This document shows positions 1 through 19,793 of a DNA stretch of 62,720 nt, one piece after another. A model generated the notes under the pieces. It had not been told where the DNA came from. It searched no databases and was given only the letters and a program-made list of their open reading frames with translations. The stretch spans positions 1 through 62,720 of the forward strand of contig CAZUDQ010000005.1 in NCBI GenBank assembly GCA_964619365.1. Direction: 5' to 3'. A program made the translations under genes and the position numbers. Position 1 is the stretch's first letter; every line of letters starts with the position of its first letter. This DNA is from an uncultured archaeon (GTDB lineage: Archaea; Altiarchaeota; Altiarchaeia; JAFGQM01).

Positions 1-3000
1 TTGTGATGTTAGCGTTGCCCCCACCAAGGATTCCTGCACCAGAGCTTGTAAAGAAGACAAATGCGGCAGAGTATGCATCTGTAATCGTCCCGCTCGCATT
101 TCCTGCAATCCCTCCAATCGCACTTGCACCAAGAACATTTGCTGCCGAGTAAACGTTTGTTAATTCGCAGTTTTCTGCGCGTCCGACAATTCCACCAAGT
201 GTGTTTGCACCAAGGACGTTTCCTAGGGCATAAGAATTTTCAATTGTTGTTCCTTGTGCCTCACCAACCATTCCACCAACATTTATTCCTCCTGAAACGT
301 TTGCGCTTGAAATACACTCTGTTATTGTGGCACCGCTCGCGTTTCCAATAAGGCCACCCGTACCATCAACCCCAGTTACTGCGGCACGCGACTCGCACTC
401 TTCAATTGTTGTTCCAATAGCAATACCTATTAGGCCGCCTGTGTCAGGGCCTCCTGAAACAAGCTCGCTTTGTGAGTAACATGAACTTACACTACCTCCT
501 TGTAGATATCCTGCAAGGCCTCCGATTATTCCTGAGCCACTCATGCGTCCTAGGGTGTTGCAATTTGTAATTTTGACGTCAACTGCATATGAGACTATTC
601 CACCAGAGTATGACTCGACGTCTATTCCTCCGGAGGTAGTTTCTGTTATTGTGCTTGAATTAACATCAGTTATGTTTGCGCGGTCTCCAATTGCATATAT
701 CCCACCAGCATAATGGGTTGCTGAAACTGACGCACTTGAACTTGAGTGAGTAATCTCTGAATCCGCTCCGTCGCCGGCAACTCCCCCTGCGTTGTTTGAG
801 GCGCTGACATCACCTGAAGTTATTATATATGAAAGGGTCGTTCCTCCTGCTTGTCCAGCAAGGACGCCTATGTTTCCAACGCCTGTTGCGTTGGCCTCAG
901 CAGTTATGTGCGATATTGTCGCACCGTATGCGTTTCCGACTAAGGCTCCGACATATGTTGCACCGATTACCTCTGCGTTTTCTATTGAGAGGTTTGTGAT
1001 ATTTCCTGAACCATTATGCGAGTAAAGGTTTCCGAAAAGTCCCTGATTGTCTTCTTCACGGTCTATTGTCAGGTCACTTAATGTGTGGCCAGCTCCGTCA
1101 AAGGTTCCTGTGAATGGGAAGTCGTTAGTCTCGTCGTAACATGAACCTGTGCAGTTTCCAATTGGGGTCCAGTTCGAGGCGCTTGAAAGGTCTAAGGAAG
1201 CGTTAAGGTCGTAGTCGCAGTGGAGGCACTCCCTTGCTGAGGAGAGGTCGGCGACTGTGTTAATTATACATGGATCGTTGGCTGTCCCCAATCCATCCAT
1301 TCCGTTTGGACATGGTGCATCAACTGTCAAGGTTCTAAGCTCCGTGACATTAGCGTTTCCTGAAGTATCATTACACCTTACATAATAAATATAATTTGTT
1401 TCGTCTGTTAAATTTATTACAGTATAGTTTGCCCATGTGTTATTATCTAAGTTATGGATCTGCATTGAGTAGTTTGTTGTTTCATGCGAAGATTCTTCAC
1501 TTTCAAGAGTAAAAGTTGGCTCGGGAGAAGAATATTTACGGACTTTTACGTTAACAGAATACGCCCTTGAAAACCAGTGGCCCAGATAATAGTCATACAA
1601 ATAGGTCTCGTCTGTATCTCCGCCCCCATATTTTACCCTACCCCCATTTTGATACCATCCAAAATATTGGTTTGTGCTAATTGGTAATTCTGTTGCTAAT
1701 GTGCCCGCGTTATATCCTGTTGATACAGTAAAACTTTCGGAGGTCTGAATTTGACTTGTTCCTATCGTGGGGAAAACATAGATTTTAAAATTGCTTCCCG
1801 AAGAACCAAAATATGCTCTCCAGCCCATAACTCTCCCATCAAAAGTTATTTCATCTTTTGCATTTGCTATTCTACCCAAATCTCCCGTATCTGTATTATC
1901 TCTGTCTATGGCGGGCCTGCCAAAGAAATCAAATGTAGCATTCTCATTACTCTCACTTGTCGCATTATCATTCCCATAGTACATATAGATATACGAAGTT
2001 GCGGTTGTAATATTATCATCAACTTTAGCCCAAATTGAGGCATTCTCTCCAGACGAACTACAATTTTCAATCCAATAGGGCAATTGAGTTGTATTGGAGT
2101 CATCAACAAATCTTATGTCATTACAGTTTCTTGACCAATTGAAGTTAGTTCCAACATTACTTGAATTCAAAATTATATTTGTTTGGTAATCTTGTTCTGT
2201 TGAGCCACTTGCTACGGATAAATTAATTTTTTGTCTGTGTGCAAAGGAGTCATTCCACCAGTCTGTGTAAGGCGTTCCGCCAGTAGTCCAACTCAAAACA
2301 CAGTCTGAAAGGTTCTCGTTTGACGTGACATTAATTTCTACACTGGTATTTGTCGTATTTGTGTCATTTGGGGGTGTCGGCAAGACAAATTCTATATGGG
2401 GGGGTGTTACAGCCTCAAGAATTGTAACATTCCAATGGCGAGTTTCTACAGTTGCACTTGAATCACTTAACAAGTCTGCATACGCAAAGAATTCATATGT
2501 TGAGCCTGCAGTCGCGTTAGGAACAACTTGCCAAGTCACGTTTTGACACTGACTCATGTTAAGTTCTATTGTCTGCGGGTTAGCACTTGTCGTGTAAAAC
2601 GGGCTTCCCGAACCATATGGTATAAGGCCTCCTTTTACCCAAGACGGAGGAACTGGAAGATTATTCAAAAGATAAGGATATTCGTCATTTAGTTCCTCTG
2701 AGATGTTCCATATTGTAGAGAAATCCCATCCGGCAGTCGTAAAAGTACTTTCGCTTTTCATTTGAGCCGTGGTTTTGCCGACCCCACACGCTGAAGATGA
2801 CTGGGCAGAACTTTGCGTATCCCAGAATGATTCTGTACAGGTTCCTACGTTTATGCCAACAAGACCACCTATGTCGTTAGTTCCACTGACATGGCCTGTT
2901 GAATAAGAGTTCTCTATAATGTGGGAATTATTCCCAACTAGACCAGCAACAGCAGTAACCCCACTGACTTGTCCTCTTGCATAGGAGTTATTTACCCTAC

Positions 3001-6000
3001 TATTCACACCATTTCCTATTAGTCCTCCGGTATTATTGCCTCCTGTGACTCTTCCTGTTGCGTAAGAACCTAATATTTGTGATTTGGCAGAAGGGCTAAG
3101 CCAGTCTGTGTTTGAATTACCTACAAGACCACCAACACCATTCTCCCCTGTGACTGCACCTGTTGCATAACAGTTTGAAACTATTGGATCATAGCTTAAT
3201 TTACCTACTAGTCCTCCGACATAACTTCCACCTGTTACTGTACCCGTTGCATGGCTATTTACTATATTTTCACTACTGGATCCTACTAGCCCACCTACTC
3301 GCTCGTCTCCACTGGTATTGCCTGTTGCATAAGAATTTAAAACCCCGCCACTTCCTTCATTTGAACCTAGTAAACCACCTACTCTGATTGCGCCTATAAC
3401 TTTTGCTGTGGAATAACAATCTTCTAAAATTGAGCTCGAACTTATTGACCGTGCAACCAGTCCTCCCACCATATCACTCGTACCGGTGACATTTCCTGTA
3501 GAATAAACATTTTGGACAATGGCTTGACCATATCCCAGTAATCCCGCCACGTAACCGTCTCCAGTAATATTCACATTTGTCAAACCGACATTTCTAAATT
3601 GGGCGGCGGACCAGGCATACGCAAACAACGCAATATGATCCTCGGTGGGTCTGTTGATATACAATCCATCTATTGTGTAGTTATATCCATCAAAGACTCC
3701 TATAAATTTACCTGAAGAATACGCACCGATAGGATCAAAGCCCGCGCCACTATGCCAATCCCCAGTCATAGAACAATCAATATCATGGAGAAGCCTATAA
3801 CTAGCCGAATAACTTACACTTGCAATATTTTCAAGACCAGTACAATTATGTATTAGATAATAACCTGCGTCCTGATTAACACACATTCCATTACCCGCAT
3901 CGCCACCATAGTCCGTGCAGTCTGAAGCTGGGTCAAGTGAAACATTAATCTCGCCACAGTCAATTTCTAAACAACAGACTTCAACAGAAACCTCATTTGT
4001 CTGGTTTATCGTCATATTCTGTTCTAAGGCAAAATTATTGACAATTATATTAAGGAATGTTCCGATTATTTCCAGATACCTAGTTCCAGTTGAATTACTG
4101 TTGCCTGAGGTATCAAATACTGTTGCGCTGTAAGTGTAGTTTCCTCTACTCAGATTGGATTCATTCGCATAAAAGTTCCAATTTGTCTCATTGCATTTTT
4201 TGAGGTTTGACCTGTAGAGGAGTAAAACCTCATCTGGATTTAAGGTCCTATTGTATATCCTCACCTCATCGATTGTTCCATTGAAATAATTATAGTTATA
4301 TGAACAACCAATTGTCCAGATGTCGGAGCCCCAAGCTGGAACAGATCCAGTTCTTTGGGCAGTAAAATTATTATCCATATATATTCTTTCAGTAGAACCA
4401 TCCCAAGTATAGACCATGCTATGCCAAACATCATTATCAATGGTGTATCCTGTATCAAACCCAGACCACCTATAAAGAGAGCCATCATCTGAAACTATAA
4501 GATACGTTCGTCTATCTCCCCCTCCGCTTTGACTTATTATAGACGCATATGTTCCAGTAGAAGGATTTCTTGCTTTTTTAACCCATAAGAATATACTATA
4601 ACTATTTACCAAACCAAGATTATCATTATCTGGAATTACAATCCTATTGTTAATGCCGTTAAACTCGTAAGCCCCTCCATAAACCCCTGCAGTCGCATTC
4701 CAAGTCGCACCCTCAACAGTTCCATCATTCCCGTGCCCACTCATATCAACAACATGAGTCAAATTCTCACCAAGAGCGGCGACATTGTCAAAATTATACA
4801 TCAGGACAAGCGACTCATCAAACAAGCTGTAATTAGTCCCATTCCAGTCGAAAGTAATGTTTGCTAGATACTCTTCAATGACACTAAGATTGATTTCCAC
4901 AGACGTGTTAGTCTGCGCACTGTCGTTGTCAGGTGTTGGAGGGACGAATTCTATTTCCGGACTCTTGTTCTCGACTATCGTGACGTTAAAGACACTTGAG
5001 GTATTCGAGATGCTTGAGTCTGCAAGGAGGTTTGCTTCTGAAAAGACGCTGTATGTTTCAAGAACGCCTCCTGTCACATTAGCGTGCAAAGGTATAATCT
5101 TTGTCTCCCCGCCTTCTCCCAGTGAGAAAACAAAGGGATTTGAGGAGTTTATTACAAACGGTGTTGCGGAAGCAGAGTCGTTCATCAAGTCAGAAGAGTA
5201 AGTGAAGAACGGACTACTAAGGTTTACTACTGTTGAAAAGAAAGTTCCTCCACCCATGCCCCACGGGTCATACGTAATACAGTCAAAGGAATAAACAGTC
5301 CTCCCAAGACGCTCTCTACTTGGACATAGGTACTGCACATCAAATCCTGTTACTGAACAAGGTCCATTAATCCCGGCTACGCCCTGTTCATCACAATAAG
5401 CGTCATTATAAACATAAGATTCCCCGCCATAACAATATTTGTTGGCGCCACTTGAGCCATAATACCACTGCCCTTCCCAGCTCTTATAACCTGGCTCATA
5501 TATATTATCGCAATCCATAGTGCAGACTGCATTTGCCGGGTCGCATTCCAGGGGTGCTCCACTGTGGTAATTTAGGCTTACGTTTACTGAGGAACAGTTA
5601 TTTAAGATACATGTTAGATTCAGTGTCAGGTTCAAATTTTCGTACTGGTTTACTCGTTTATTTGATGTGTTTACAAAATCTATTGAAAACGCAGGTATTG
5701 CGATAGTGACGTTCCTTGTTTCGCTCTGAGCTGATGCATCGAAGTTATCTACGGCAGTTAAATAATAACTATAAACTCCGTTAGACAAGTTTGTTTTTGC
5801 CTCATAGAAACTCCATATGGTGTCACTCAGATTCCTTAATTGACCGTAGTACAAGTCTTTGATTTCATCAACACTTAAGACTTTGTTGTAGACTCTGACC
5901 TCATCAATCGAGCCATTAAACCTGTATCCAAATGTATCTGCTGAACACCCTATACCAAAATTGGTTCCGTAGAAATTGATTGGTGATGAGGATATCGAGG

Positions 6001-9000
6001 GATTGTTTACCACCTCCACTCCGTCAAGGTAAAACCTTGCGATTTGGTTGGGTGCGTCCCAAGTGCCTACAATATGGTGCCAAACGTTTGCTTCGAAATT
6101 AATTGGGTACTGAAGGAGAGTCCCCATATCATGAGCGCCATAAGTTAATTGTCCCGATTGATATCTCATGTAATAACGGTGATACTGGGAGATAAAAACT
6201 TGCGTATAAGCTGGGTATGTGCCGTTTAGTTCACCTGCAGGGCGGAACCATAATGACATGCTGTTTGTACTCGCATTCATCATGTTTGTCGAGCGGAGGT
6301 AATTAGTCCCGTTAAATTCTATTGCGCCCCCAAACTTCCCACGCGCATTCCAGGCACCAGGCCCTATGTTTAGGACTTCGTGGCTGAAGTTGGCAAGGTT
6401 TTTAGTCATTAGACTGGGGTCATCAAAATTAAGGTTAAAGACTAAATCGCTGATTTCTGAATTAGAGTAATCCCTTGCTGGACAGGCGTCACCATGACCG
6501 CAGTCACAAGTCTGGTTTGCGTAATAAGTGCAAGTTGTTCCATTCCAGTTAAGTGTGGCATATGCTAGATTAGAACCGTTGATAGTAGCATTCAAATTCA
6601 AAAGAGATGCTCCAACTGTCGCACCATTATCTGGTGTGGGGAGAGTAAAGTTTATTTGAAAAGGTGGAAGGCCCTCTGTAACCTCGTAAGTCGTAAATCC
6701 AGTTACATTAAACCTGAACGTTCCTGTAGAATTATTATAACTTAGGACATTACACACAGGAGACTCGCACACTACAAAGGTTCCGTTATCATTGATGTCC
6801 TTCTGTATTATGGGAGTATAATTGAATGTTAAATTCCTTAAGGTTATATTTGAAGATTCGTTTAATCCCGGCAAATCTATTGAATCGACAAATGTATGGT
6901 TAAGGCTTATGTCTGCGTTAAGGCTTAAGTTTGCAAGTTCATACAATGTTTCCAGCCACGCAATCGTTCCGAATTCCTGCTCGATAGTAAGACGGGTGTT
7001 GTTATAGTTTAAGTTCGTGTCGGTAAATGAGTTATTGATTAAGACTAAGCTGTCTCCATCTCCTTTTATTATGGCATCAATACCTGGGTTTGTCCAAGTG
7101 AAATTTGATAAGTACGCCGTGTCACTTACTAAGATGTCTAATGGGTTGATTGCTCCGACTATGTTGTCTGCGTTTATCACTGAGAGATTTGAGAAGCTCC
7201 AGTCACTTGGGTTATTCGTGTTAAAGAAGGTCGTGTTAACACTTTCGTTGGCAATCCCTGTCGTGCCTTGGAACCTAAAGCCACCATAAATCTGGGCTGA
7301 GTTCTTGTTCTGGTCAACAAATATCAGGGTTCCTGTATCCCCTGGAGAAGCTGGATATGAACCACCTGCAACGCTTCCCTTAGTGACACTTGAGGATTGT
7401 GGACTTGTGAGTGTACTGGTGTTATAATAAACTGCGATTCTTCCGCCCGCGCCGCCACCTCCACCATAAAGGGTGGCAGAACCTCCGTTTCCGGCATCTG
7501 CTGAGAAATCTCCGCTACCGGCTAGCACATCTGTTATAACATAAATGGATCCGCCCGACCCAGCCCCACTTGCTCGACTAGTACTCCGACCATCTACGCC
7601 GTCTGCTGTAATACTACCGTCTAATGTCAATACATCTGTTATGTTAAGGGATATGGCCCCCCCTCCAGCGCCGCCAGGGTAATCAAATCCACCCCCACCA
7701 CCACTTCCAAGAATTGTTGGTGCTAATGATGAATCATAAACAACGCCCGCATAGCCTCCACCAGAATGACCTCCTTTGCCGCCAGCACCGCCATGGCCTG
7801 CCCCACCACCACTATAAGAACTGCCACCGCCTGCACCAGGTCCAGAACCGGCTGTTCTAGAAGCGCCGCCGGAATAACCTTTCCCGTCTGCTGAGATAGT
7901 GGAATCAGAATCAAGTACCAAATTAGTAGCTGTTATATTGGAATTTCCATAAAAATGTGAATTATTCAGGACAATGTCACTATCTAGTTGTATAGATATG
8001 GAATTAACTATTCTCTCAGAAGCACTCAAACTTGAATCTTTGACTGCCATAGCCCCCAGATTAAAATCAATTATGTCACTTGACCAACTGGAATTTGTTA
8101 AATTAAGATTATTTTCTACAGAAATACTCAAATTAGAAACTGCTTCGATTACATTGTCTGCATTCATAATCGTCAGGTTTGAGAAGTTCCAGTTGCTTGG
8201 GTCGTTCGTGTTAAAGAAGGTCGTGTTCACGCTTTCGTTGGCAATCCCGCTTGTTCCCTGGAACCTGAATCCCCCATAAATCTCTGCTGAGTTCTTGCTT
8301 TCGTCTACAAAGATTAGGGTTCCTGTGTTTCCTGGAGAAGCTGGATATGAACCACCTGCAACGCTTCCCTTAGTAACGCTTGATGATTGTGGGTTTGTGA
8401 GTGTACTACTGTTATAATAAACTGCGATTCTTCCACCCGCGCCGCCGCCTCCACCATAAAGGGTAGCAGAACCTCCATTTCCAGCATCTGCTGAGAAATC
8501 TCCGCCGCCAGTTAATACATCAGTTATAACATAAATGGATCCACCTGATCCACCCCCTGTTGCTCGACTAGTACTCCGACCATCTACGCCATCTGCTGTA
8601 ATCTTACCATCTAATGTTAAGACATTAGTTATATCAAGGAATATCGCTCCGCCTCCGGCTCCTCCAGCGTAATCACACCCCCCGCCTCCGCCACTTCCAA
8701 GGGTTGTTGGTGCTAATGATGAACCATAAATTATACCTCCGACCCCTCCAGAAGAATGTCCTCCGTGACCACCACTTCCACCATGACCGCCGCCTCCCCC
8801 ACTATACATGCCGCCGCCGCCAGCACCGGGTCCAGAACCGGCTGTTCTAGAAGCGCCACCGGAATAACCTTTCCCGTCTGCTGAAATGCTTGCCCCAGTA
8901 TCTATAGTCAAGACATTTGCAGTCAAGGCAATGGAATTATTTCCTGCGGTAGCCGAGTCAAAAGTCAAAACGGCGTTATTTGTTATCGTGACAACATCAC

Positions 9001-11851
9001 AGGTTTGATTTTGCGTCCATGTGGTATCTGTTGTTATTGTTAAGTTGCCGCCCGTATCCAGACAGTTTGGATATGGTATATACTCTATTGTAACGTTCCA
9101 GTGTTCTGTTTCGTTGCTGATACTTGGGTCACTTGAAAGGTTTGCAAATGCGAAGAATTCGTAAGTTGAATTGATGTCCCCTGTTGCATTAACACTCCAA
9201 GTGACGTTTTGGCACTGGCTTGCGTTAAGGTTTATAGTTTGAGGATTATCTGAGGTTGTATAAAACGGTGTTGCTCCGATTGTTGTGTTTATTAATCCTG
9301 TTTTTCCTGTTGCTGTAACTGTTGGAACTGGTGAGGAACCAGCTTTAACAGTCCAGGTAGTACATAAATCTGGCGTATCTACTTCGGGCTGCCCATAATA
9401 CATAAGACCTGCAAGAGAAGCTGTATCTCTCCGAATCTCCCAGTCCCACGAACCAGTCCAGTGTATAAGATAACCACTATCGTCATGGAGATAAAGAGGT
9501 TTTCCATAATAGGTTCCACTTTCAGTATAATGTCCATTAGCTGCTGCTGTTCCAGCTCCCGCAACTGTTATTCCATATTCGGGTGTTGGGTCTAAGGAAA
9601 CATTGATTTCGCCGCAGTTTGCATCAAGACAACAGACTTCTGTTGTCACATTGAAGAACTCGTTTTGTGTTGCGTTAAGATCGCCTGTGGGTGTTACTAA
9701 AGATATATTCACCCTCGGATTTGAGGGACTTGATGATGAAAACCCTTGTAAGTCTGGATAATTTGTCCCGTTGTTTGAATCATTCCAGGTGCTTGTGAAG
9801 TCCCAGGACTCTTCGGGCGAGTTTGAATAATTAAAGAAATAAGATATCGAAGTCTCAGCAGTGCAGCTAACTGGGGTCCCGTCCTTTATACATACATCTG
9901 GGTTACTAGCAGAGTTTAGCCAATATGCACCAATAATCTGTGCGCCAGAATCTATATAACCTGCTACAGCTCCTTTGTGAATAGATGTACACGAGATATT
10001 TGAAACAGTAAAGATATCTTTCATAGCCCAGCCACCATTGTTGCCACTTACTCCGCCGGCAACCCCACCTATATAATAATAGCCCGAGTTGAGTACTATT
10101 TTCCCTATGTTGTATACATTAGTCAGTCTACTGTTAAGGAGACGCCCTACAATACCTCCAATATTGCCATCATCCCCAAGACCTGTAAGATTGCCCGTAA
10201 AATAAATGTTTTCGGCATAAGCTCCTTCTAAATGACCTATAACACCGCCGAGGTTTGCTCCGTCATACGAATTAATATCTGCGTTTTCTACAAATACCCG
10301 GTTAACTGCGCCGTTATCGATGCGTCCTGCAAGTGCTCCAGTATATCCCTGACCATTAACAAAGGGACTACTAAGACCTAGGTCATAAACACTAAATCCA
10401 GTACTGGCATATCCAAATAATCCCTGATAGTCTTCATCATAATCATCTATCGTTAAATTAATAATAGTATGCCCACTACCGTTTAACTCTCCAGTAAATT
10501 TCGTTGAACTGCTTCCAATCGGACTAAATCCATCGGCATCATTCCATCTTTTTGAATCATTACAGTCAATGTTGTTTTCTAATCTGTAATATGCATCCAA
10601 ATCATCTTCCATAGTTTGTAAGCCACTGCAATTAACGAGTAAATATGGATTTTCACTTGTACCATTACCACTCAAGGTTGGATTGCCTGGTGGCGTTAAT
10701 CCGGGTTGCCTTAAAGTTGTAAAAGAAGCACTGTGTTCTTCCCAGACATAATCGCGATCAAACCCGATTAGGGGAGAATTATTCATGTTATAAAAATAGC
10801 TTTGGTTGGTTTTAGCTGTGCAGCTAACTGGGGTCCCATCTTTTACACATACATCTGGATTACTGGCAGAATTTAACCAGTATGTACGAAGAATACGTGC
10901 ATCAGAATCTATATAACCCGCTACAGCTCCTTTGTGAATAGATGTACACGAGATATTTGAAACAGTAAAGACATTTTTCATAGCCCGACCACCATTATTG
11001 CCACTTACTCCGCCGGCAACCCCCCCTATATAGTAATAACCCCCGTTTAATGTTATTCTTCCTATATTATACGCATTAGTCAGTCCACTGTTAAGCAATC
11101 GCCCTACAATACCTCCAATATTGCCATCAGCCCCAAGACCAGTCAGATTACCTGTAAAATAAATGTTTTCGGCAGAACTACCTTCTAAATGACCGATAAA
11201 ACCGCCGATGTTGGCTCCACTGGGTGAATTGACATCACCGTTTTCTACAAATACTCTGTTAACGGCACCGTTATCAATGCGTCCTGCAAGTGCCCCAGTA
11301 TATGCTTTACCATTAACAAACGGGTTGATAATGCCTAGATCGTAAACACTAAATCCAGTACTGGCATATCCAAATAATCCCACATAATCCTCAGTTGAGC
11401 GGTTTATGTAAAGAGCCGCTATTGTGTAACCCGAACCATTAATTGTTCCTGTGAATTTATTACTGTTATCGCCAATAGGGTCCAATCCGATTCCTGTTGT
11501 ATAATACGCGTCACAAAACGAGAAGTCAATATCGTTTTGGAGTTCGTAATCCCATGAAAGCTGGGTTCGCGTTAAATTTAAGTCATCACATGAGCAGATT
11601 GGATGTGGGCTTGTTCCTGCGTCCCAGCAGTCTGTTACCGAGTCGCCCATGAGGCCTGAAACGGGTTCTGTTTCATTCCCGGTTTCGTTTGACTCTGGAG
11701 GTGTGACAAAGTACTCATAAAGCTCGTCGTCACCCACGGCGGCACCTGATAAAGAAAACACGGTTAGGACTACAATTAGGAATGCTAATAACGATAATAC
11801 TAAATAGGCTTTTTTCTGCCGAGTTCCAGATATGATTTGGGCTTCCCCCAT
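1..11851 (-). CDS. Giant secreted/surface adhesin-like protein (>3,950 aa, 3' end outside window) with GLUG repeats, two LamG-like domains, a DUF2341-like domain, Gly-rich modules and Ig-like domains
   Basis: ATG at 11851 gives MGEAQIISGTRQKKAYLVLSLLAFLIVVLTVFSLSGAA (basic then hydrophobic signal). The same frame reads ...GNANIT at the left edge. The ORF track lists no ORF in this frame, consistent with no stop before the edge. Motifs: GGLVG/GGLIG repeats, WHHIVGTWD..FNGSIDEVRVYN, DIRFVD..LPYWIE, many N-x-S/T sequons. Confidence 0.93.
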   Translation of the reverse strand, partial: MGEAQIISGTRQKKAYLVLSLLAFLIVVLTVFSLSGAAVGDDELYEYFVTPPESNETGNETEPVSGLMGDSVTDCWDAGTSPHPICSCDDLNLTRTQLSWDYELQNDIDFSFCDAYYTTGIGLDPIGDNSNKFTGTINGSGYTIAALYINRSTEDYVGLFGYASTGFSVYDLGIINPFVNGKAYTGALAGRIDNGAVNRVFVENGDVNSPSGANIGGFIGHLEGSSAENIYFTGNLTGLGADGNIGGIVGRLLNSGLTNAYNIGRITLNGGYYYIGGVAGGVSGNNGGRAMKNVFTVSNISCTSIHKGAVAGYIDSDARILRTYWLNSASNPDVCVKDGTPVSCTAKTNQSYFYNMNNSPLIGFDRDYVWEEHSASFTTLRQPGLTPPGNPTLSGNGTSENPYLLVNCSGLQTMEDDLDAYYRLENNIDCNDSKRWNDADGFSPIGSSSTKFTGELNGSGHTIINLTIDDYDEDYQGLFGYASTGFSVYDLGLSSPFVNGQGYTGALAGRIDNGAVNRVFVENADINSYDGANLGGVIGHLEGAYAENIYFTGNLTGLGDDGNIGGIVGRLLNSRLTNVYNIGKIVLNSGYYYIGGVAGGVSGNNGGWAMKDIFTVSNISCTSIHKGAVAGYIDSGAQIIGAYWLNSASNPDVCIKDGTPVSCTAETSISYFFNYSNSPEESWDFTSTWNDSNNGTNYPDLQGFSSSSPSNPRVNISLVTPTGDLNATQNEFFNVTTEVCCLDANCGEINVSLDPTPEYGITVAGAGTAAANGHYTESGTYYGKPLYLHDDSGYLIHWTGSWDWEIRRDTASLAGLMYYGQPEVDTPDLCTTWTVKAGSSPVPTVTATGKTGLINTTIGATPFYTTSDNPQTINLNASQCQNVTWSVNATGDINSTYEFFAFANLSSDPSISNETEHWNVTIEYIPYPNCLDTGGNLTITTDTTWTQNQTCDVVTITNNAVLTFDSATAGNNSIALTANVLTIDTGASISADGKGYSGGASRTAGSGPGAGGGGMYSGGGGGHGGSGGHGGHSSGGVGGIIYGSSLAPTTLGSGGGGGCDYAGGAGGGAIFLDITNVLTLDGKITADGVDGRSTSRATGGGSGGSIYVITDVLTGGGDFSADAGNGGSATLYGGGGGAGGRIAVYYNSSTLTNPQSSSVTKGSVAGGSYPASPGNTGTLIFVDESKNSAEIYGGFRFQGTSGIANESVNTTFFNTNDPSNWNFSNLTIMNADNVIEAVSNLSISVENNLNLTNSSWSSDIIDFNLGAMAVKDSSLSASERIVNSISIQLDSDIVLNNSHFYGNSNITATNLVLDSDSTISADGKGYSGGASRTAGSGPGAGGGSSYSGGGAGHGGAGGKGGHSGGGYAGVVYDSSLAPTILGSGGGGGFDYPGGAGGGAISLNITDVLTLDGSITADGVDGRSTSRASGAGSGGSIYVITDVLAGSGDFSADAGNGGSATLYGGGGGAGGRIAVYYNTSTLTSPQSSSVTKGSVAGGSYPASPGDTGTLIFVDQNKNSAQIYGGFRFQGTTGIANESVNTTFFNTNNPSDWSFSNLSVINADNIVGAINPLDILVSDTAYLSNFTWTNPGIDAIIKGDGDSLVLINNSFTDTNLNYNNTRLTIEQEFGTIAWLETLYELANLSLNADISLNHTFVDSIDLPGLNESSNITLRNLTFNYTPIIQKDINDNGTFVVCESPVCNVLSYNNSTGTFRFNVTGFTTYEVTEGLPPFQINFTLPTPDNGATVGASLLNLNATINGSNLAYATLNWNGTTCTYYANQTCDCGHGDACPARDYSNSEISDLVFNLNFDDPSLMTKNLANFSHEVLNIGPGAWNARGKFGGAIEFNGTNYLRSTNMMNASTNSMSLWFRPAGELNGTYPAYTQVFISQYHRYYMRYQSGQLTYGAHDMGTLLQYPINFEANVWHHIVGTWDAPNQIARFYLDGVEVVNNPSISSSPINFYGTNFGIGCSADTFGYRFNGSIDEVRVYNKVLSVDEIKDLYYGQLRNLSDTIWSFYEAKTNLSNGVYSYYLTAVDNFDASAQSETRNVTIAIPAFSIDFVNTSNKRVNQYENLNLTLNLTCILNNCSSVNVSLNYHSGAPLECDPANAVCTMDCDNIYEPGYKSWEGQWYYGSSGANKYCYGGESYVYNDAYCDEQGVAGINGPCSVTGFDVQYLCPSRERLGRTVYSFDCITYDPWGMGGGTFFSTVVNLSSPFFTYSSDLMNDSASATPFVINSSNPFVFSLGEGGETKIIPLHANVTGGVLETYSVFSEANLLADSSISNTSSVFNVTIVENKSPEIEFVPPTPDNDSAQTNTSVEINLSVIEEYLANITFDWNGTNYSLFDESLVLMYNFDNVAALGENLTHVVDMSGHGNDGTVEGATWNATAGVYGGAYEFNGINNRIVIPDNDNLGLVNSYSIFLWVKKARNPSTGTYASIISQSGGGDRRTYLIVSDDGSLYRWSGFDTGYTIDNDVWHSMVYTWDGSTERIYMDNNFTAQRTGSVPAWGSDIWTIGCSYNYNYFNGTIDEVRIYNRTLNPDEVLLLYRSNLKKCNETNWNFYANESNLSRGNYTYSATVFDTSGNSNSTGTRYLEIIGTFLNIIVNNFALEQNMTINQTNEVSVEVCCLEIDCGEINVSLDPASDCTDYGGDAGNGMCVNQDAGYYLIHNCTGLENIASVSYSASYRLLHDIDCSMTGDWHSGAGFDPIGAYSSGKFIGVFDGYNYTIDGLYINRPTEDHIALFAYAWSAAQFRNVGLTNVNITGDGYVAGLLGYGQAIVQNVYSTGNVTGTSDMVGGLVARSISSSSILEDCYSTAKVIGAIRVGGLLGSNEGSGGVLNSYATGNTSGDERVGGLVGSSSENIVNSHATGTVTGGSYVGGLVGKLSYDPIVSNCYATGAVTGENGVGGLVGNSNTDWLSPSAKSQILGSYATGRVTGGNNTGGLIGNGVNSRVNNSYARGQVSGVTAVAGLVGNNSHIIENSYSTGHVSGTNDIGGLVGINVGTCTESFWDTQSSAQSSSACGVGKTTAQMKSESTFTTAGWDFSTIWNISEELNDEYPYLLNNLPVPPSWVKGGLIPYGSGSPFYTTSANPQTIELNMSQCQNVTWQVVPNATAGSTYEFFAYADLLSDSSATVETRHWNVTILEAVTPPHIEFVLPTPPNDTNTTNTSVEINVTSNENLSDCVLSWTTGGTPYTDWWNDSFAHRQKINLSVASGSTEQDYQTNIILNSSNVGTNFNWSRNCNDIRFVDDSNTTQLPYWIENCSSSGENASIWAKVDDNITTATSYIYMYYGNDNATSESNENATFDFFGRPAIDRDNTDTGDLGRIANAKDEITFDGRVMGWRAYFGSSGSNFKIYVFPTIGTSQIQTSESFTVSTGYNAGTLATELPISTNQYFGWYQNGGRVKYGGGDTDETYLYDYYLGHWFSRAYSVNVKVRKYSSPEPTFTLESEESSHETTNYSMQIHNLDNNTWANYTVINLTDETNYIYYVRCNDTSGNANVTELRTLTVDAPCPNGMDGLGTANDPCIINTVADLSSARECLHCDYDLNASLDLSSASNWTPIGNCTGSCYDETNDFPFTGTFDGAGHTLSDLTIDREEDNQGLFGNLYSHNGSGNITNLSIENAEVIGATYVGALVGNAYGATISHITAEANATGVGNIGVLAGQAGGTTLSYIITSGDVSASNNAGGVAGDGADSEITHSSSSASVSATHYAGGIYAIGDRANITDVNSSTITETTSGGIDVESYSGGIVSYAVDVKITNCNTLGRMSGSGIIGGLAGYLQGGSVSSCYSQSELVSGGPDTGGLIGIAIGTTIEECESRAAVTGVDGTGGLIGNASGATITECISSANVSGGINVGGMVGEAQGTTIENSYALGNVLGANTLGGIVGRAENCELTNVYSAANVLGASAIGGIAGNASGTITDAYSAAFVFFTSSGAGILGGGNANIT
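7160..8885 (-). repeat. Intragenic duplication of the Gly-rich module (about 8150-8885 and 7160-7895, offset 990 bp)
   Basis: Near-identical DNA, e.g. ggaataacctttcccgtctgctga at 8861 and 7871, and ctggatatgaaccacctgcaacgcttccct at 8341 and 7351. Confidence 0.9.
9855..11385 (-). repeat. Intragenic duplication of the N-terminal GLUG-like module (about 10815-11385 and 9855-10425, offset 957 bp)
   Basis: Near-identical DNA, e.g. ctggcatatccaaataatcc at 11361 and 10404, and gtgcagctaactggggtccc at 10818 and 9861. Confidence 0.9.
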
Positions 11852-11890: not shown

Positions 11891-12153
11891 TATCAGAACT
11901 TTTTTATTTTAAGGATGGGATAGCCTTGTCCTAAAGGGAGATAAGAGGATATACTCGCATACCCGATTGTTGATACTGCAAGAGTTTTTTGTAGCATAAA
12001 CGATCTGTTTTATATTAGGGGAAGTATGGGGGGTCTTGGCTAATTCATACTATCAAAGTATAACTATATCTTAGTAAGCTTCTCATGACGGCTTTTTATT
12101 GGTCGTCGTGATTATTTAGTTGAAAATAAGCACTTGTGGCTTTTACTTGTAAA

Positions 12154-13167
12154 ATGGTTGTACGAATCGGTATAAACGGCTTTGGAAGGACGGGGAGACT
12201 TGCTATGCGCGCGGCCCTTGGGCGTAAAGATGTAGAAGTTGTGATGGTTAACACTAGGACTGCAGACCCAGAGCAAATGGCATACCTTCTAAAATATGAT
12301 TCTGTGCACGGAATTCTTCCTGACGAGGTAAAGGCTGGAGATGGCTGCTTTTATGTCGGCGGCAAAAAAGTCATTCTTAATGGAGAGGCTGGAGAGCTTT
12401 CAAATATACCCTGGGGTGAAAACAAGGTTGATGTTGTTATTGAATCCACTGGCAAATTTAAAACTGGTCCGACGACACGTGGCCACCTTGAGGGGGGGGC
12501 AAAAAAGGTGATAATTTCGGCGCCTGGGAAGGAACTTGATAATACTATTGTCCTTGGAGTCAATGAGGATACTTACACGCCTGAGCAAAATATTGTTTCA
12601 AACGCATCATGCACGACAAACTGCCTTGCTCCTGTTGCAAAAGTCTTAAACGACGCTTTTGGAATTGAAAAGGGCTTTGCAACAACGATACATTCCTATA
12701 CTGGCGACCAGAGACTTCTTGATGGCTCGCACAAAAAGGACCTTAGACGAGCGCGCTCCGCGGCAATGTCAATGATTCCGACGTCAACTGGGGCGGCTAA
12801 AGCAACATGCCTAGTCATCCCGGAACTTAAAGGTAAACTTGACGGGGTTGCAATACGCGTTCCAACGCCGGATGTATCTATTGTTGACTTGGCCGCAAAA
12901 TTAACTAAGGAAACAACGGCTGAAGAGATCAATGCGACATTTAAGAGAGTCTCTGAAGGGAAACTTGCAGGGATAATCGCTTATTCGAAGGAGCCACTAG
13001 TTTCAGTGGATTACGTTTCAACGCCATACTCTGCGATAATCGATTCACAGCTAACTAGCGTTACTGGTGGAGACCTTGCAAAGGTATTTGCATGGTATGA
13101 CAACGAGATGGGCTACTCGACAAGACTCGTTGACCTCGCAACGTTCATGGCCAAAAAAGGTCTTTAA
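12154..13167 (+). CDS. gap: Glyceraldehyde-3-phosphate dehydrogenase, class I (bacterial type)
   Basis: GINGFGRTGR Rossmann motif, catalytic ASCTTNCL, WYDNEMGYS. The ATG at 12154 is preferred to the upstream GTG. Confidence 0.97.
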   Translation: MVVRIGINGFGRTGRLAMRAALGRKDVEVVMVNTRTADPEQMAYLLKYDSVHGILPDEVKAGDGCFYVGGKKVILNGEAGELSNIPWGENKVDVVIESTGKFKTGPTTRGHLEGGAKKVIISAPGKELDNTIVLGVNEDTYTPEQNIVSNASCTTNCLAPVAKVLNDAFGIEKGFATTIHSYTGDQRLLDGSHKKDLRRARSAAMSMIPTSTGAAKATCLVIPELKGKLDGVAIRVPTPDVSIVDLAAKLTKETTAEEINATFKRVSEGKLAGIIAYSKEPLVSVDYVSTPYSAIIDSQLTSVTGGDLAKVFAWYDNEMGYSTRLVDLATFMAKKGL

Positions 13168-18225: not shown

Positions 18226-19793
18226 ATCTTCCAAAGCTTCCAAAAGACCCGGGTTGTTACTTATATCGAGATAAGGCGGGAAAGATAATCTATATCGGGA
18301 AAGCAAAAAATCTGAATAATCGTATACGGAGTTATTTCTCCGGGACACATGACCCTAAGACTAAGGAGCTCGTAAAGCATATTGAATCAGTCGACTTTAT
18401 AATAACCGATACTGAAGCTGAAGCCTTGATACTCGAATCGAATCTTGTCAAAAAACATCAGCCAAAATACAATATAGACTTAAAGGATGCAAAAGGATTT
18501 GCGTATATCAAAATAACTAATGAGGAATTCCCAAGACTCGTTATTGCTAGGGGAAAACCTACTAGCAAAAAAGGGGAAGGGCTCTTTGGACCTTTTACAA
18601 ATGCCGCCGCGCGCGACTTTGCACTTCATGCCCTAAGAAAAGCATTTGGCATAAGGACATGCTCGCGCATGCCAAAAAAACCGTGCCTGAAAAAGGACAT
18701 GGGTTTATGTTCTGCGCCTTGTGTGGGCAATATAAAACAGGGAGATTATATCACAGCTGTAAGGCAGGCCGAAGCCGTGCTCCTCGGAAAGAGTGAGGAA
18801 CTAAGCGAACAGCTCAGTGTTGAAATGATGCAGGCTTCAGAGAACAAGGATTTTGAGCGCGCGATACTCTTAAGGGAGCGCATATCCGCAATAAAGTCCC
18901 TTTCAGAGCGGCAGAAGATGGAGCGCCGGGGAAAACATAATGAAGACGTGATATTCTGGGAACTGCGCGAGGGTCTTTGTTACTTACTTTTGTTTAATGT
19001 AAGAAAGGGCATCCTTGAAGCAAAGCAGGAATTTGTATTTCCTGCAATCGGGGATTTTTTCGATTCGTTCTTATTCCAATTTTATTCTGATGCAAAAGAC
19101 ATGCCAAAAGAACTTATATTACAAAAATCCCCAGAGACAGACTTGGAAACTGTACTTAAGGGACTTAAAGGTTCTAAAGTCAGGATTACCGTACCAAAAA
19201 CTGGAGTAAAGAAAAAGCTTCTTGACTTAGCAAGGGCTAATCTTGAGGCAAGCTTTTTTTCAGGTGAATCAAGCATCGCAGAATTAAAGGATGCAATTGG
19301 TTTAAAGACTGTGCCTGAGGTTATAGAATGCTTTGACATCTCGCATTTGGGCGGGACTGAAACTGTTGCTTCAATGGTCTCTTTTCTCAAGGGCAAGCCC
19401 AATAAGGCAGCTTACAGGCGCTTTAAGATACGGGAAACAAAGGGTGTTGATGACTTTAAATCCATTTCTGAAGTCGTTAGTAGGCGTTACTCTCGCCTCT
19501 TAAAAGAAAACTCCAATATGCCTGATTTGATACTTATTGACGGCGGAAAGGGACAACTATCCTCGGCAGACTCTGCACTCAAAGAACTTAGCCTGGATAT
19601 ACCTTTGGCAAGTATTGCAAAACGTGAGGAAGAAATATTTATCAGGGGACAAAAAGAGCCCATAATCCTTCCCATGAAAAGCAAGGCACTACACCTCTTG
19701 CAAAGCATAAGGGATGAAGCGCACAGATTTGCGATAAACTACCAGAAAAAACGGCGCGATATGCAGATGAAAGAAGAGTTTTTAGAACTATGA
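18222..19793 (+). CDS. uvrC: Excinuclease ABC subunit C
   Basis: GIY-YIG N-terminus ([14 protein letters not shown]), [22 protein letters not shown]. The C-terminal HhH domain appears absent. Confidence 0.96.

What the first reader, a model, noticed from the sequence alone, without database searches (positions are those of the whole stretch)
1325..9720. Nested architecture: split Ig-like scaffold domains carrying swappable passenger domains at a fixed loop
Seen: scaffold A occurs three times as N-half VCCLxxxCGEINVSLDP and C-half (K)xGLIxxxxGxxPFYTTSxNPQTIxLNxSQCQNVTW...TYEFFAxAxL; the middle copy is more diverged. Each copy has a different insert at the LDP^KxGL junction: a ~93-aa unknown domain (~9306-9586), a Cys-rich ~120-aa domain (~5205-5570) and a ~430-aa GLUG domain (~2640-3928). 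Scaffold B also occurs three times, as IxFxxPTPxN...W ^ ...NLxxxxYxY...DxxxxxxxxxxRxxxI, with inserts of LamG (~5850-6450), LamG (~4220-4810) and DUF2341-like (~1510-2270). The DUF2341-like domain seems to carry its own insert. Inference: an Ig-like stalk displays interchangeable binding domains as side branches, a cassette-style adhesin diversification system that I do not recall being described explicitly.
Basis: partly seen in the sequence, partly recalled or inferred. Interest (0 to 1): 0.78.

Follow-up and report, generated by a model that had tools for sequence, protein, structure and literature searches.

The report
Archaeal adhesin with split carrier domains
A giant surface protein of a small-genome archaeon is a stalk of antibody-like domains, each opened at one fixed loop to carry a different probable binding module, which is an archaeal version of the split domains already described in bacterial giant adhesins.

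Summary
The finding lies inside one minus-strand ORF (window 2-11851, 3950 aa, cut by the contig end).

**Scaffold A** (about 120 aa):
- It occurs three times here, split at LDP|KxGL by a 94-aa domain, a 124-aa Cys-rich domain and a 431-aa GLUG module.
- An AlphaFold2 model places both halves (pLDDT above 90) in one CARDB/MG-like beta-sandwich.
- In the 150 best homologues, local HMMs found 271 N-C pairs. Fourteen are contiguous or nearly so, and 257 carry inserts that fall, with the four own-genome copies, into 69 BLAST clusters.
- A paralogue in the same genome has 74-76% identical halves but a GLUG module where this gene has the 94-aa domain.

**Scaffold B** (Ig-like):
- It carries LamG, LamG and a DUF2341-like cargo.
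- Its two halves are predicted to interlock.

My searches found no archaeal case in print. This scan has noted the same design before on other DNA (e1-5121064, e1-4969324, e1-2776749).

A role in adhesion, and active cassette exchange, are inferred and not shown. I class it as a new variant of a known kind, of moderate interest.

The parts
11732..11809 (-). N-terminal hydrophobic segment (aa 15-40), a probable signal or membrane anchor
   Evidence: Read from the translation. No predictor was run, so this is inferred.
9722..11617 (-). Two in-line GLUG modules (aa 79-396 and 397-710)
   Evidence: The two modules are 59-84% identical to each other. Pfam Glug motif.
9587..9721 (-). Scaffold A copy 1, N-half (aa 711-755), ending in SLDP
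   Evidence: pLDDT above 90 in model m47aedfee41f5.
9305..9586 (-). Cargo of A1: a 94-aa domain with no Pfam family
   Evidence: No Pfam hit. The same domain stands alone, as two tandem copies, in the 197-aa protein P0130. It was modelled at pLDDT below 50, so its fold is unknown.
9083..9304 (-). Scaffold A copy 1, C-half (aa 850-923), starting KTGL
7076..8986 (-). Two Gly-rich repeat modules (aa 956-1262 and 1281-1592), not part of the nested units
   Evidence: About 80% identical to each other. Weak NCBIfam AgmC_N match, far below its cut-off.
6521..6667 (-). Scaffold B copy 1, N-half (aa 1729-1777)
5825..6520 (-). Cargo of B1: a LamG (Laminin_G_3) domain, preceded by a short Cys-rich stretch
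   Evidence: Pfam best stretch aa 1849-1998. Local LamG HMM, E 1.8e-49.
5699..5824 (-). Scaffold B copy 1, C-half (aa 2010-2051)
5567..5698 (-). Scaffold A copy 2, N-half (aa 2052-2095), the diverged copy
5195..5566 (-). Cargo of A2: a 124-aa Cys-rich domain with no Pfam family
   Evidence: No Pfam hit and no Atlas hit. It belongs to one of the two largest insert clusters: 29 members, 28 of them in 15 homologous proteins plus this copy.
4970..5194 (-). Scaffold A copy 2, C-half (aa 2220-2294)
4811..4966 (-). Scaffold B copy 2, N-half (aa 2296-2347)
4190..4810 (-). Cargo of B2: a LamG domain
   Evidence: Model residues 52-252 match ConA-like lectin domains: 5hon_B at Z 18.8, 177 aligned; CBM40 4c1w_A at Z 17.1.
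4064..4189 (-). Scaffold B copy 2, C-half (aa 2555-2596)
   Evidence: Weak Pfam Big_13 match, 24 bits against a cut-off of 27.
3929..4063 (-). Scaffold A copy 3, N-half (aa 2597-2641), ending in SLDP
2636..3928 (-). Cargo of A3: a 431-aa GLUG module
   Evidence: Pfam Glug best stretch aa 2874-2901. It is 31-33% identical to the in-line GLUG modules.
2414..2635 (-). Scaffold A copy 3, C-half (aa 3073-3146), starting KGGL
2261..2407 (-). Scaffold B copy 3, N-half (aa 3149-3197)
1481..2260 (-). Cargo of B3: a DUF2341-like part (about 110 aa) followed by about 155 aa of unknown kind
   Evidence: Pfam DUF2341 at aa 3242-3310. Homologues match only cargo residues 1-111. The second part has no Pfam hit.
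1319..1480 (-). Scaffold B copy 3, C-half (aa 3458-3511)
2..1318 (-). Further in-line GLUG modules (aa 3512-3950). The gene is cut here by the contig end.
   Evidence: Glug motif, 7 stretches. 78% identical to the paralogue on contig C12.

Best explanation
The gene encodes a giant, N-terminally anchored, sequon-rich surface protein of a small-genome archaeon. Its relatives lie mostly in DPANN-type archaea.

**Shown.**
- The protein contains two kinds of small beta-sandwich 'carrier' domains.
- Scaffold A has a CARDB/MG-like fold, is about 120 aa long and is in no Pfam family.
- Scaffold B has a canonical Ig-like strand pairing.
- Each is opened at one fixed loop and holds a complete passenger domain. 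In A the junction motif is LDP|KxGL, after the fourth strand. In B the opening is after the fifth strand.
- Five such units abut directly, in the order B1-A2-B2-A3-B3, over aa 1729-3511. A sixth unit, A1, lies upstream.

**Inferred.**
- The carriers form the axis of a fibre.
- The passengers stick out sideways as binding heads. They are LamG lectin-like domains, GLUG modules, a DUF2341-like domain, a Cys-rich domain and a 94-aa domain.
- These heads recognise the surface of a host or partner cell, or a substrate, as in the split domains of bacterial RTX adhesins.
- Scaffold and cargo have separate histories, so cargo has been exchanged many times during evolution, or the scaffolds have been homogenised. 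The conserved halves could serve as the flanks for recombination.
For: **One fold from two halves, scaffold A.**
- The AF2 model of aa 705-930, made with 12 empty homologues as its alignment, has mean block pLDDT of 90-98 over residues 11-50 and 151-220. The insert is below 50.
- In an all-against-all VIA-align search, single domains align across model residues 4-222: 5jpm_B at Z 10.9, rmsd 3.0, 106 aligned; 3idu_A CARDB at Z 10.3, rmsd 2.6, 102 of 116.

**One fold from two halves, scaffold B.**
- Complex prediction on the two B2 halves without the LamG scored 0.61, against 0.01 for the best of 3 controls. That mark was reached by 58 of 80 solved complexes and 2 of 110 mismatched pairs.
- The runs agree in at least 97% of their contacts, and the partner's pLDDT is at least 81.
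- The least-error contacts pair chain 1 residues 23-29 with chain 2 residues 11-17, and chain 1 residues 37-41 with chain 2 residues 26-32.
- This pass may partly reflect likeness to solved Ig folds.

**Empty and filled forms, scaffold A.**
- The A1 segment finds 998 representative proteins at E of 1e-3 or less.
- In the best 150, local HMMs find 273 N-halves and 287 C-halves, giving 271 ordered pairs.
- The gap is 5 aa or less in 12 pairs, 7 aa in one, 31 aa in one, and 94 to about 1000 aa in the other 257.
- In 31 named genome loci there are 41 pairs, of which 2 are empty.

**Varied cargo.**
- 261 inserts fall into 69 BLAST clusters.
- Pfam names in the insert ranges: DUF2341+Laminin_G_3, Fibrinogen_C, Laminin_G_3, FG-GAP and DUF5128 propeller. 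CBM_4_9, BNR and NIDO match only weakly. Many have no family.

**Same site, different cargo between paralogues.**
- The contig C12 gene has A halves 74-76% identical to A1 but a 376-aa GLUG module in place of the 94-aa domain.

**Scaffold and cargo are decoupled.**
- Of 119 pairs of C-halves that are 70% or more identical, 95 carry inserts of different clusters. One pair within a single protein is 100% identical.
- On a FastTree of 275 C-halves the cargo label needs 171 changes. The minimum possible is 69. The mean of 200 shuffles is 224, with a range of 209-232.

**Passengers are autonomous domains.**
- The 94-aa domain stands alone in P0130.
- LamG and GLUG also occur in line in the same genome.

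**Surface and lectin character.**
- There are 153 N-x-S/T sequons in 3950 aa.
- The LamG model's best matches are carbohydrate-binding domains.
- DPANN giant LamG/Ig surface proteins are proposed host-attachment factors (PMC10266531, passages read).

**Not an assembly chimera.** All 12 junctions are bridged by contigs.
Against: - No binding, localisation or expression data exist. No RNA holder was listed.
- The A1 passenger was modelled at pLDDT below 50, so its fold and its geometry relative to the stalk are unknown.
- I could not inspect coordinates. 'One sandwich' for A therefore rests on alignment ranges, and for B on a complex prediction that can pass by resemblance to solved Ig folds.
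- The scaffold-B statistics in homologues are weaker. Of 76 pairs, 32 have gaps above 1000 aa; these are probably mis-pairings in which the N-half HMM missed its partner. Only 2 empties were seen.
- The C-half tree rests on about 75 columns and is poorly resolved, which inflates the number of label changes.
- Between this gene's own copies the DNA is 47-79% identical, with identical runs of at most 36 bases. Contigs of four runs showed no alternative joints. So there is no sign of ongoing switching.
- The C-terminus is missing, so any anchoring or secretion signal there is unknown.
Confidence: 0.78

Rival explanations
1. The nested architecture is real but static. It would be an old, vertically inherited set of scaffold-cargo fusions plus concerted evolution (gene conversion) of the scaffold halves, and not a system that exchanges cargo to vary specificity.
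For: - The cargo label changes less often on the scaffold tree than in any shuffle: 171 against 209-232. So cargo and scaffold are partly co-inherited.
- Own copies share at most 36 identical bases.
- There were no alternative joints in the contigs of 4 runs. Contigs drop rare variants.
Against: - Of 119 scaffold pairs that are 70% or more identical, 95 carry unrelated cargo, including pairs from different proteins at 80-89% identity.
- Collinear paralogues differ in cargo at the same socket.
- Homogenisation alone does not explain why 69 cargo clusters all sit at one junction.
Confidence: 0.3
2. The architecture is real but the protein is not a cell-cell adhesin. It could be a cell-envelope or sheath component, or a polysaccharide-capturing or polysaccharide-processing fibre whose lectin-like modules bind polymers in the environment.
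For: - The best structural matches of the LamG cargo are carbohydrate-binding domains of glycoside hydrolases and sialidases.
- No host is known for this organism.
- The genome encodes several other LamG-rich giants.
Against: - Pfam and NCBIfam found no catalytic domain in the 3950 aa.
- Relatives are concentrated in small-genome archaea labelled Woesearchaeota, Nanoarchaeota, Pacearchaeota and the like. Their giant LamG/Ig proteins are proposed attachment factors (PMC10266531).
Confidence: 0.15
3. The 'halves' are just conserved linker or mini-domain sequences flanking each module of a repeated cassette. They would not be parts of one fold.
For: The halves always travel with a module between them in this gene, and the junction motifs LDP and KxGL look like linkers.
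Against: - Contiguous forms of about 120 aa with no module exist.
- Both halves align together to single solved beta-sandwich domains.
- The B halves are predicted to interlock with about 145 contacts, against a control score of 0.01.
Confidence: 0.04
4. The arrangement is an assembly artefact, produced by mis-joining of repeats in a metagenome-assembled genome.
For: - The gene contains 80-90% identical repeats.
- Contigs show loose ends at window 6633 and 7807, and a depth dip at 7147-7543.
Against: - All 12 half/insert junctions are bridged by contigs. Ten of them are bridged by runs other than the likely source, with 0 differences.
- The same architecture recurs in 148-149 of 150 homologues from other assemblies.
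Confidence: 0.02

Closest known systems
Split domains of Gram-negative RTX adhesins (AhLap of Aeromonas hydrophila, FrhA of Vibrio cholerae, MpIBP). Sources: PMC12077191, passages read; PMC10865825, listing and abstract only; Graham et al. 2024, Proteins 92:933, seen only as a citation and not held.
   Same: - An Ig-like beta-sandwich in a fibrillar giant surface protein is interrupted by a complete domain that 'buds' sideways.
- Several such units lie in one protein, each with a different cargo (CBM, vWFA, beta-roll there; LamG, GLUG, DUF2341-like and others here).
- Further nesting inside a cargo is described there.
   Different: - Archaeal host.
- No RTX repeats in the 3950 aa available.
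- Unrelated scaffold sequences with no Pfam family.
- Different insertion point: here after the 4th strand (A) or the 5th strand (B), while in AhLap's second split domain the passenger follows the first strand.
- Five units abut directly instead of sitting among extender domains near a distal tip.
- Scaffold A is almost always occupied: 257 of 271 pairs.
CARDB domain (PDB 3idu, Pyrococcus furiosus PF1109) and the complement/alpha-2-macroglobulin MG domains (5jpm_B, 8cem_B)
   Same: The fold of the joined scaffold A halves. Z is 10.3-10.9 over 102-106 aligned residues.
   Different: - There is no sequence-level match. No CARDB hit at E of 0.1 or less for the whole protein, and none among the families listed for A1 and 12 empty homologues.
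- There is no PDB relative by profile.
- Z values of 9-11 are shared by many unrelated beta-sandwiches in the same list, so this names a fold class and not a family.
Giant LamG/Ig-rich surface proteins of DPANN archaea (nanohaloarchaeal giant or 'SPEARE' proteins and LamG proteins; PMC10266531, passages read)
   Same: - Small-genome archaea.
- N-terminal signal.
- Thousands of residues of Ig-like and LamG domains.
- A proposed role in attachment to a host.
   Different: - The passages read describe tandem domains and a VirB4-like ATPase domain. They do not describe nested or split carrier domains.
- No ATPase domain was found here in the part available.
- The proteome here is not strongly acidic, with a median pI of 5.8.
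Nested domains of Gram-positive pilus tip adhesins such as RrgA. This is recalled from memory; no call was made.
   Same: An adhesive domain inserted into an Ig-like stalk domain.
   Different: Those are pilin subunits with isopeptide bonds and sortase signals. This was not tested here.

Membership tests
RTX-adhesin split domains (functional class) | A beta-sandwich domain interrupted by a complete passenger domain, with both halves forming one fold | tested here: met
   - Scaffold A: model and VIA-align ranges 4-222.
- Scaffold B: LamG at model residues 52-252, and halves predicted to interlock at 0.61 against 0.01 for the best control.
- Empty forms exist in homologues.
RTX-adhesin split domains (functional class) | [quoted passage not shown] | tested here: not met
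   - There is no RTX/HemolysinCabind hit in the 3950 aa at E of 0.1 or less.
- The genome is archaeal: PolD large subunit, LonB and a FlaI-like ATPase are in the window.
- The C-terminus is missing, so a signal there cannot be excluded.
RTX-adhesin split domains (functional class) | The passenger binds a ligand on a target surface | not testable with these tools
   There are only fold-level hints. The best matches of the LamG model are carbohydrate-binding domains.
CARDB (Pfam PF07705) | A match to the family profile | tested here: not met
   The whole protein has no CARDB hit at E of 0.1 or less. CARDB is not among the families listed for A1 and 12 empty homologues; only scattered single-member hits at E of 0.008 or more appeared. 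The fold is similar.
Laminin_G_3 (PF13385), for the cargo of B1 and B2 | A match above the gathering score, and a ConA-like jelly-roll fold | tested here: met
   137 bits against a cut-off of 27.6, 2 stretches. 5hon_B at Z 18.8, 177 aligned.
DUF2341 (PF10102), for the cargo of B3 | A match above the gathering score | tested here: met
   72.1 bits against a cut-off of 23.4, at aa 3242-3310, profile positions 1-68 of 84. The following 155 or so residues are unassigned.
GLUG motif (PF07581), for the cargo of A3 and the in-line modules | A match above the gathering score | tested here: met
   56.3 bits against a cut-off of 20.5, 6 stretches. 7 stretches in aa 3513-3950.
Big_13 (PF19077), for scaffold B | A match above the gathering score | tested here: not met
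   24.0 bits against a cut-off of 27, and only over the C-half, aa 2551-2588. A paralogue scores 22.5 bits. A split domain is hard for a linear profile to score, so relatedness is not excluded.

The most novel reading that the evidence does not exclude
Scaffold A would be a dedicated 'socket' domain family of small-genome (DPANN-type) archaea.

- It is absent from Pfam and present in at least 998 representative proteins.
- About 95% of its copies are occupied, at an invariant LDP|KxGL junction.
- Its conserved halves would act as homology arms, through which dozens of cargo families (69 or more BLAST clusters) are exchanged within genes, between genes and between lineages.
- This would give host-dependent archaea a re-programmable set of surface recognition heads.
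- The family may itself move laterally. It is missing from 7 of 7 genomes of the organism's own family (63-87% complete), while the best relatives carry labels of other DPANN groups.
Probability: 0.3. Interest if true: 0.72.

Novelty: new variant of a known kind. Interest (0 to 1): 0.5.

Why it matters
How ultra-small, host-dependent archaea recognise and hold their partners is an open question.

- **Finding the binding heads.** In a multi-thousand-residue protein, whatever buds from a socket is a candidate ligand-binding domain. This is the same criterion now used for RTX adhesins (PMC12077191).
- **A catalogue of candidates.** The socket yields cargo families that are mostly unnamed and can be expressed and tested.
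- **Convergence.** The split-domain display solution has arisen, or spread, outside Gram-negative RTX adhesins, with unrelated scaffolds.
- **A possible tool.** The socket is a natural loop-insertion site that tolerates cargo from about 94 to about 1000 aa, which may interest protein engineers.

Tried and rejected
- **** (too many residues) and **** (wrong frame) were slips. They were corrected.
- the stand-alone homologue of the 94-aa domain (P0130) was misaligned by MAFFT. I dropped that row, and A2 (13 rows) was used for the fold. As a result the insert had no alignment and was modelled at pLDDT below 50, so its fold is unknown.
- A single C-half was used instead.
- **Foldseek on the A1 model** gave only weak, high-rmsd rows. 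The VIA-align wide search was used instead.
- **Fold searches with the B2 model** were filled by the LamG domain, so they say nothing about the scaffold B fold. The halves were tested with complex prediction instead.
- **Pfam found nothing** for the 94-aa cargo, the Cys-rich cargo or the second part of the B3 cargo.
- **The Atlas gave no usable hit** for the B3 cargo or the Cys-rich cargo (one search was a length slip).
- **A profile of scaffold A against PDB sequences** gave only chance-level rows, at E of 0.6 or more.
- **No RNA holder was listed** for the gene.
- **Contigs of four runs** showed no joints or alternative forms at the sockets. Contigs drop rare variants, so this does not exclude them.
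- **Literature searches.** 'split domain' + archaea found 24 papers; none of the 12 listed is relevant. DPANN/giant/surface protein/LamG and nested domain/Ig-like/archaeal/adhesin found no description of split carrier domains in archaea. Subscription journals and supplements were not searchable.
- **Graham et al. 2024** is not held.
- **The search of earlier findings** by place and by sequence gave nothing.
- **Rejected reading: a halophilic 'salt-in' nanohaloarchaeon.** The median pI of 588 ORFs is 5.8.
Full report
**What is there.**

The finding lies within a single open reading frame on the minus strand, window 2-11851. It is 3950 residues long and runs off the start of the contig, so the C-terminus is missing. 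The window also encodes an archaeal DNA polymerase II large subunit, a LonB protease and a FlaI-like ATPase. The genome held for it is 1.21 Mb in 17 contigs and 85% complete. The protein starts with a hydrophobic segment (aa 15-40). It has 153 N-x-S/T sequons and a pI of 4.2. Pfam sees Laminin_G_3 (E 6.9e-40, two stretches), DUF2341 (aa 3242-3310), six GLUG motifs and a sub-threshold Big_13 match.

**Check of the observation.**

- The scaffold A N-halves align with each other, and so do the C-halves.
- The A1 and A3 C-halves are 64% identical. The middle copy is 36-42% identical to the others.
- The segments between the halves are unrelated.

HMMs of the halves, run on all 3285 frames of 80 aa or more in the genome, hit only these three copies and one copy in a 3874-aa paralogue on contig C12. 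Domain E-values ranged from 5e-21 to 6e-43.

Scaffold B halves are found three times here and once in the C12 gene. They are also found three times and twice in two further giants on contig C2, and as orphan halves in three shorter frames.

The five units B1-A2-B2-A3-B3 abut directly over aa 1729-3511. Contigs of four public salt-lake metagenome runs bridge all 12 half/insert junctions. Ten of these are bridged by a run other than the probable source. The architecture is therefore not an assembly chimera.

**Do the halves make one domain?**

*Scaffold A.* I aligned aa 705-930 with 12 homologues in which the halves are contiguous. The alignment is clean, and the 94-aa insert falls in a single gap between SLDP and KTGL.
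- The AlphaFold2 model has block-mean pLDDT of 90-98 in both halves and below 50 in the insert, which had no alignment.
- In an exhaustive structural search, single domains of about 100 residues align across model residues 4-222, that is, across both halves with the insert trimmed. Examples are the complement C4 MG domain (Z 10.9, rmsd 3.0, 106 aligned) and the CARDB domain 3idu_A (Z 10.3, rmsd 2.6, 102 of 116).
- Many other beta-sandwiches score Z 9-10, so this names a fold class and not a family.
- No Pfam family matches the scaffold, and there is no PDB relative by sequence profile.

*Scaffold B.* The model of aa 2296-2597 (21-row alignment, pTM 0.74) shows a ConA-like jelly roll at residues 52-252. 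Its best matches are 5hon_B (Z 18.8) and CBM40 4c1w_A (Z 17.1). These matches filled the hit lists, so I tested the scaffold by giving its two halves, without the LamG, to complex prediction.
- The score was 0.61, against 0.01 for the best of three controls. That mark was reached by 58 of 80 solved complexes and 2 of 110 mismatched pairs.
- The runs agree in at least 97% of contacts, and the partner's pLDDT is at least 81.
- The least-error contacts pair N-half residues 23-29 with C-half residues 11-17, and N-half residues 37-41 with C-half residues 26-32. I read this as the B-E and C-F pairings of an Ig-like sandwich.
- This pass may owe something to the model's memory of Ig folds. It supports one fold from two halves but does not prove it.

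**Empty and filled versions elsewhere.**

The A1 segment finds 998 representative proteins at E of 1e-3 or less, and 73 at 1e-30 or less. I analysed the best 150 with the half HMMs.
- There are 273 N-halves in 148 proteins and 287 C-halves in 149 proteins.
- These give 271 ordered pairs, with 16 C-halves unpaired.
- The gap is 5 aa or less in 12 pairs, 7 aa in one and 31 aa in one. It is 94 to about 1000 aa in the other 257.
- The junction is fixed. In 242 of 257 filled pairs the N-half alignment reaches the last HMM position, and in 236 of 257 the C-half starts at positions 1-3.
- The commonest N-half ends are SLDP (141) and TLDP (59). The commonest restarts are KSGL, KGGL and KTGL.

A scan of species-representative genomes gave 31 loci.
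- Ten are labelled Woesearchaeota and three Nanoarchaeota.
- Micrarchaeota, Pacearchaeota, Nanohaloarchaea, Nanobdellati, Altiarchaeota and Bathyarchaeia have one each.
- Six are labelled 'archaeon', five 'uncultured Methanosarcinales' and one Patescibacteria.
- They contain 41 pairs, of which two are empty.

In the organism's own phylum, 19 of 61 genomes (its own included) have the C-half. None of the 7 other genomes of its own family does; these are 63-87% complete.

**The cargo.**

The 257 inserts plus the four from this genome fall into 69 BLAST clusters (E below 1e-6, 40% coverage).

Pfam on cluster representatives and on ten further proteins gives the following:
- **Matches above cut-off:** DUF2341+Laminin_G_3, Fibrinogen_C (twice), Laminin_G_3, FG-GAP repeats and a DUF5128 propeller.
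- **Weak matches:** CBM_4_9, BNR and NIDO.
- **No family:** several large clusters, including the one that holds this gene's Cys-rich cargo (29 members).

The 94-aa cargo of A1 is an autonomous domain. P0130, a 197-aa protein, consists of two copies of it.

GLUG and LamG modules occur both in line and nested in this genome. Three scaffold B copies in the contig C2 giants hold two tandem LamG domains. One homologue (P0023) appears to have a fibrinogen-like domain in scaffold B; this is my reading of the sequence printed and no family search was run on it.

In homologues, scaffold B is mostly LamG-filled: 32 of 76 pairs have gaps of 200-250 aa, and two are empty. Another 32 pairs have gaps above 1000 aa, which I take to be mis-pairings. 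The B statistics are therefore weaker than those for A.

**Are the cargoes interchangeable?**

- The C12 paralogue is collinear with this gene. Blocks are 49-78% identical, and its A halves are 74-76% identical to A1. Its socket nevertheless holds a 376-aa GLUG module, which is 44% identical to that protein's own N-terminal module.
- The C12 paralogue also lacks the A2-B2-A3-B3 block.
- Across the homologues, 95 of 119 pairs of C-halves that are 70% or more identical carry cargo of different clusters. These include a 100% identical pair within one protein and pairs from different proteins at 80-89% identity.
- On a FastTree of 275 C-halves the cargo label needs 171 changes. The minimum is 69, and 200 shuffles give 209-232.

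Scaffold and cargo thus have largely separate histories. This could come from exchange of cargo, from homogenisation of the scaffolds, or from both, and the short alignment inflates the count. I found no sign of ongoing switching. Own copies share runs of at most 36 identical bases, and no alternative joints appear in the contigs.

**How it most likely works.**

Shown:
- The carriers are split beta-sandwiches with a fixed socket.
- The cargoes are complete domains of many kinds.

Inferred:
- The carriers form the axis of a surface fibre.
- The cargoes project sideways as binding heads, so that one protein displays at least six different heads plus in-line GLUG modules.
- The function is attachment to a partner cell or to a polymer.

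The lectin-type matches of the LamG model fit this reading. So does the proposal that LamG/Ig giants of DPANN archaea mediate host attachment (PMC10266531, passages read). Nothing here demonstrates it.

**Comparison with what is known.**

The device is described explicitly for Gram-negative RTX adhesins. [quoted passage not shown] A cargo's emergence from a split domain is used as the criterion to find ligand-binding domains, and further nesting is noted in a vWFA domain (PMC12077191, passages read).

This protein works like that but is not a member of that family.
- It is archaeal.
- It has no RTX repeats in the part available.
- Its scaffolds have no detectable sequence relation to any curated family.
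- The insertion loops differ.
- Scaffold A is a carrier in about 95% of its copies.

My literature searches found no archaeal description. Subscription journals and supplements could not be searched.

This scan has reported the same design before on other DNA: the same LDP socket in e1-5121064, other DPANN giants in e1-4969324 and e1-2776749, a Patescibacteria case in e1-2041898 and a Marine Group II case in e1-2625115. Those are unchecked notes. I formed my reading before seeing them.

**Verdict.**

The claim that the design is undescribed is not correct. I class this as a new variant of a known kind, of moderate interest. Its value lies in the size and near-obligate occupancy of the scaffold A family, the breadth of unnamed cargo, and the handle it gives on host recognition by small-genome archaea.

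Noticed in passing
window 6668-7075 (aa 1593-1728), just upstream of scaffold B1: There is a weak match to the C-terminal part of the Nup98-96 autopeptidase S59 profile: E 0.0019, 18.8 bits against a cut-off of 28.4, profile positions 80-147 of 148. Two homologous giants (P0031, P0126) give similar sub-threshold S59 hits. A shared beta-sandwich, or an autoproteolytic site, is possible.
   Followed up: no
G000 contig C11:2628-4022 (L011), aa 40-125: A short frame begins with a signal-like segment and then contains only the tail of a LamG domain plus a scaffold B C-half (E 5e-12). It looks like a truncated remnant of a nested unit, or a product of recombination.
   Followed up: partly
window 6633 and 7807; depth bin 7147-7543: Contigs of runs X1 and X3 have loose ends at these places, and X1 depth drops to 0.84 in one bin. 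All of this lies within the 80-90% identical Gly-rich repeats. The assembly may be ambiguous there, or there may be repeat-number variants.
   Followed up: no
G000 and the genomes of its phylum: Scaffold A is absent from all 7 other genomes of the organism's own family (63-87% complete). It is present in 18 of the 53 genomes of other families in the phylum. The closest named relatives carry labels of other DPANN groups. The family is therefore patchy, which could reflect lateral transfer or poor assembly of giant repeat genes.
   Followed up: partly
G000 contigs C2:44082-56906 (L008) and C2:18528-27467 (L009): There are two more giant genes, of 4275 and 2980 aa. They have seven LamG domains each, FG-GAP repeats, DUF285 and a beta-helix. 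Several of the LamG domains are nested, singly or as tandem pairs, in scaffold B. Giant surface genes take up a large share of this 1.2-Mb genome.
   Followed up: partly
Scaffold A N-half, aa 741-747 of P0001 (window about 9611-9631) and the same columns in homologues: Two Cys residues and a Gly (C-x4-C-G) are invariant in A1 and in all 12 empty homologues. This is probably a disulfide-clamped hairpin just before the socket strand.
   Followed up: no
window 12136-13167 and 15400-21745: A bacterial-type (type I) GAPDH and a full UvrA/UvrC set lie next to the giant gene in this archaeal genome.
   Followed up: no
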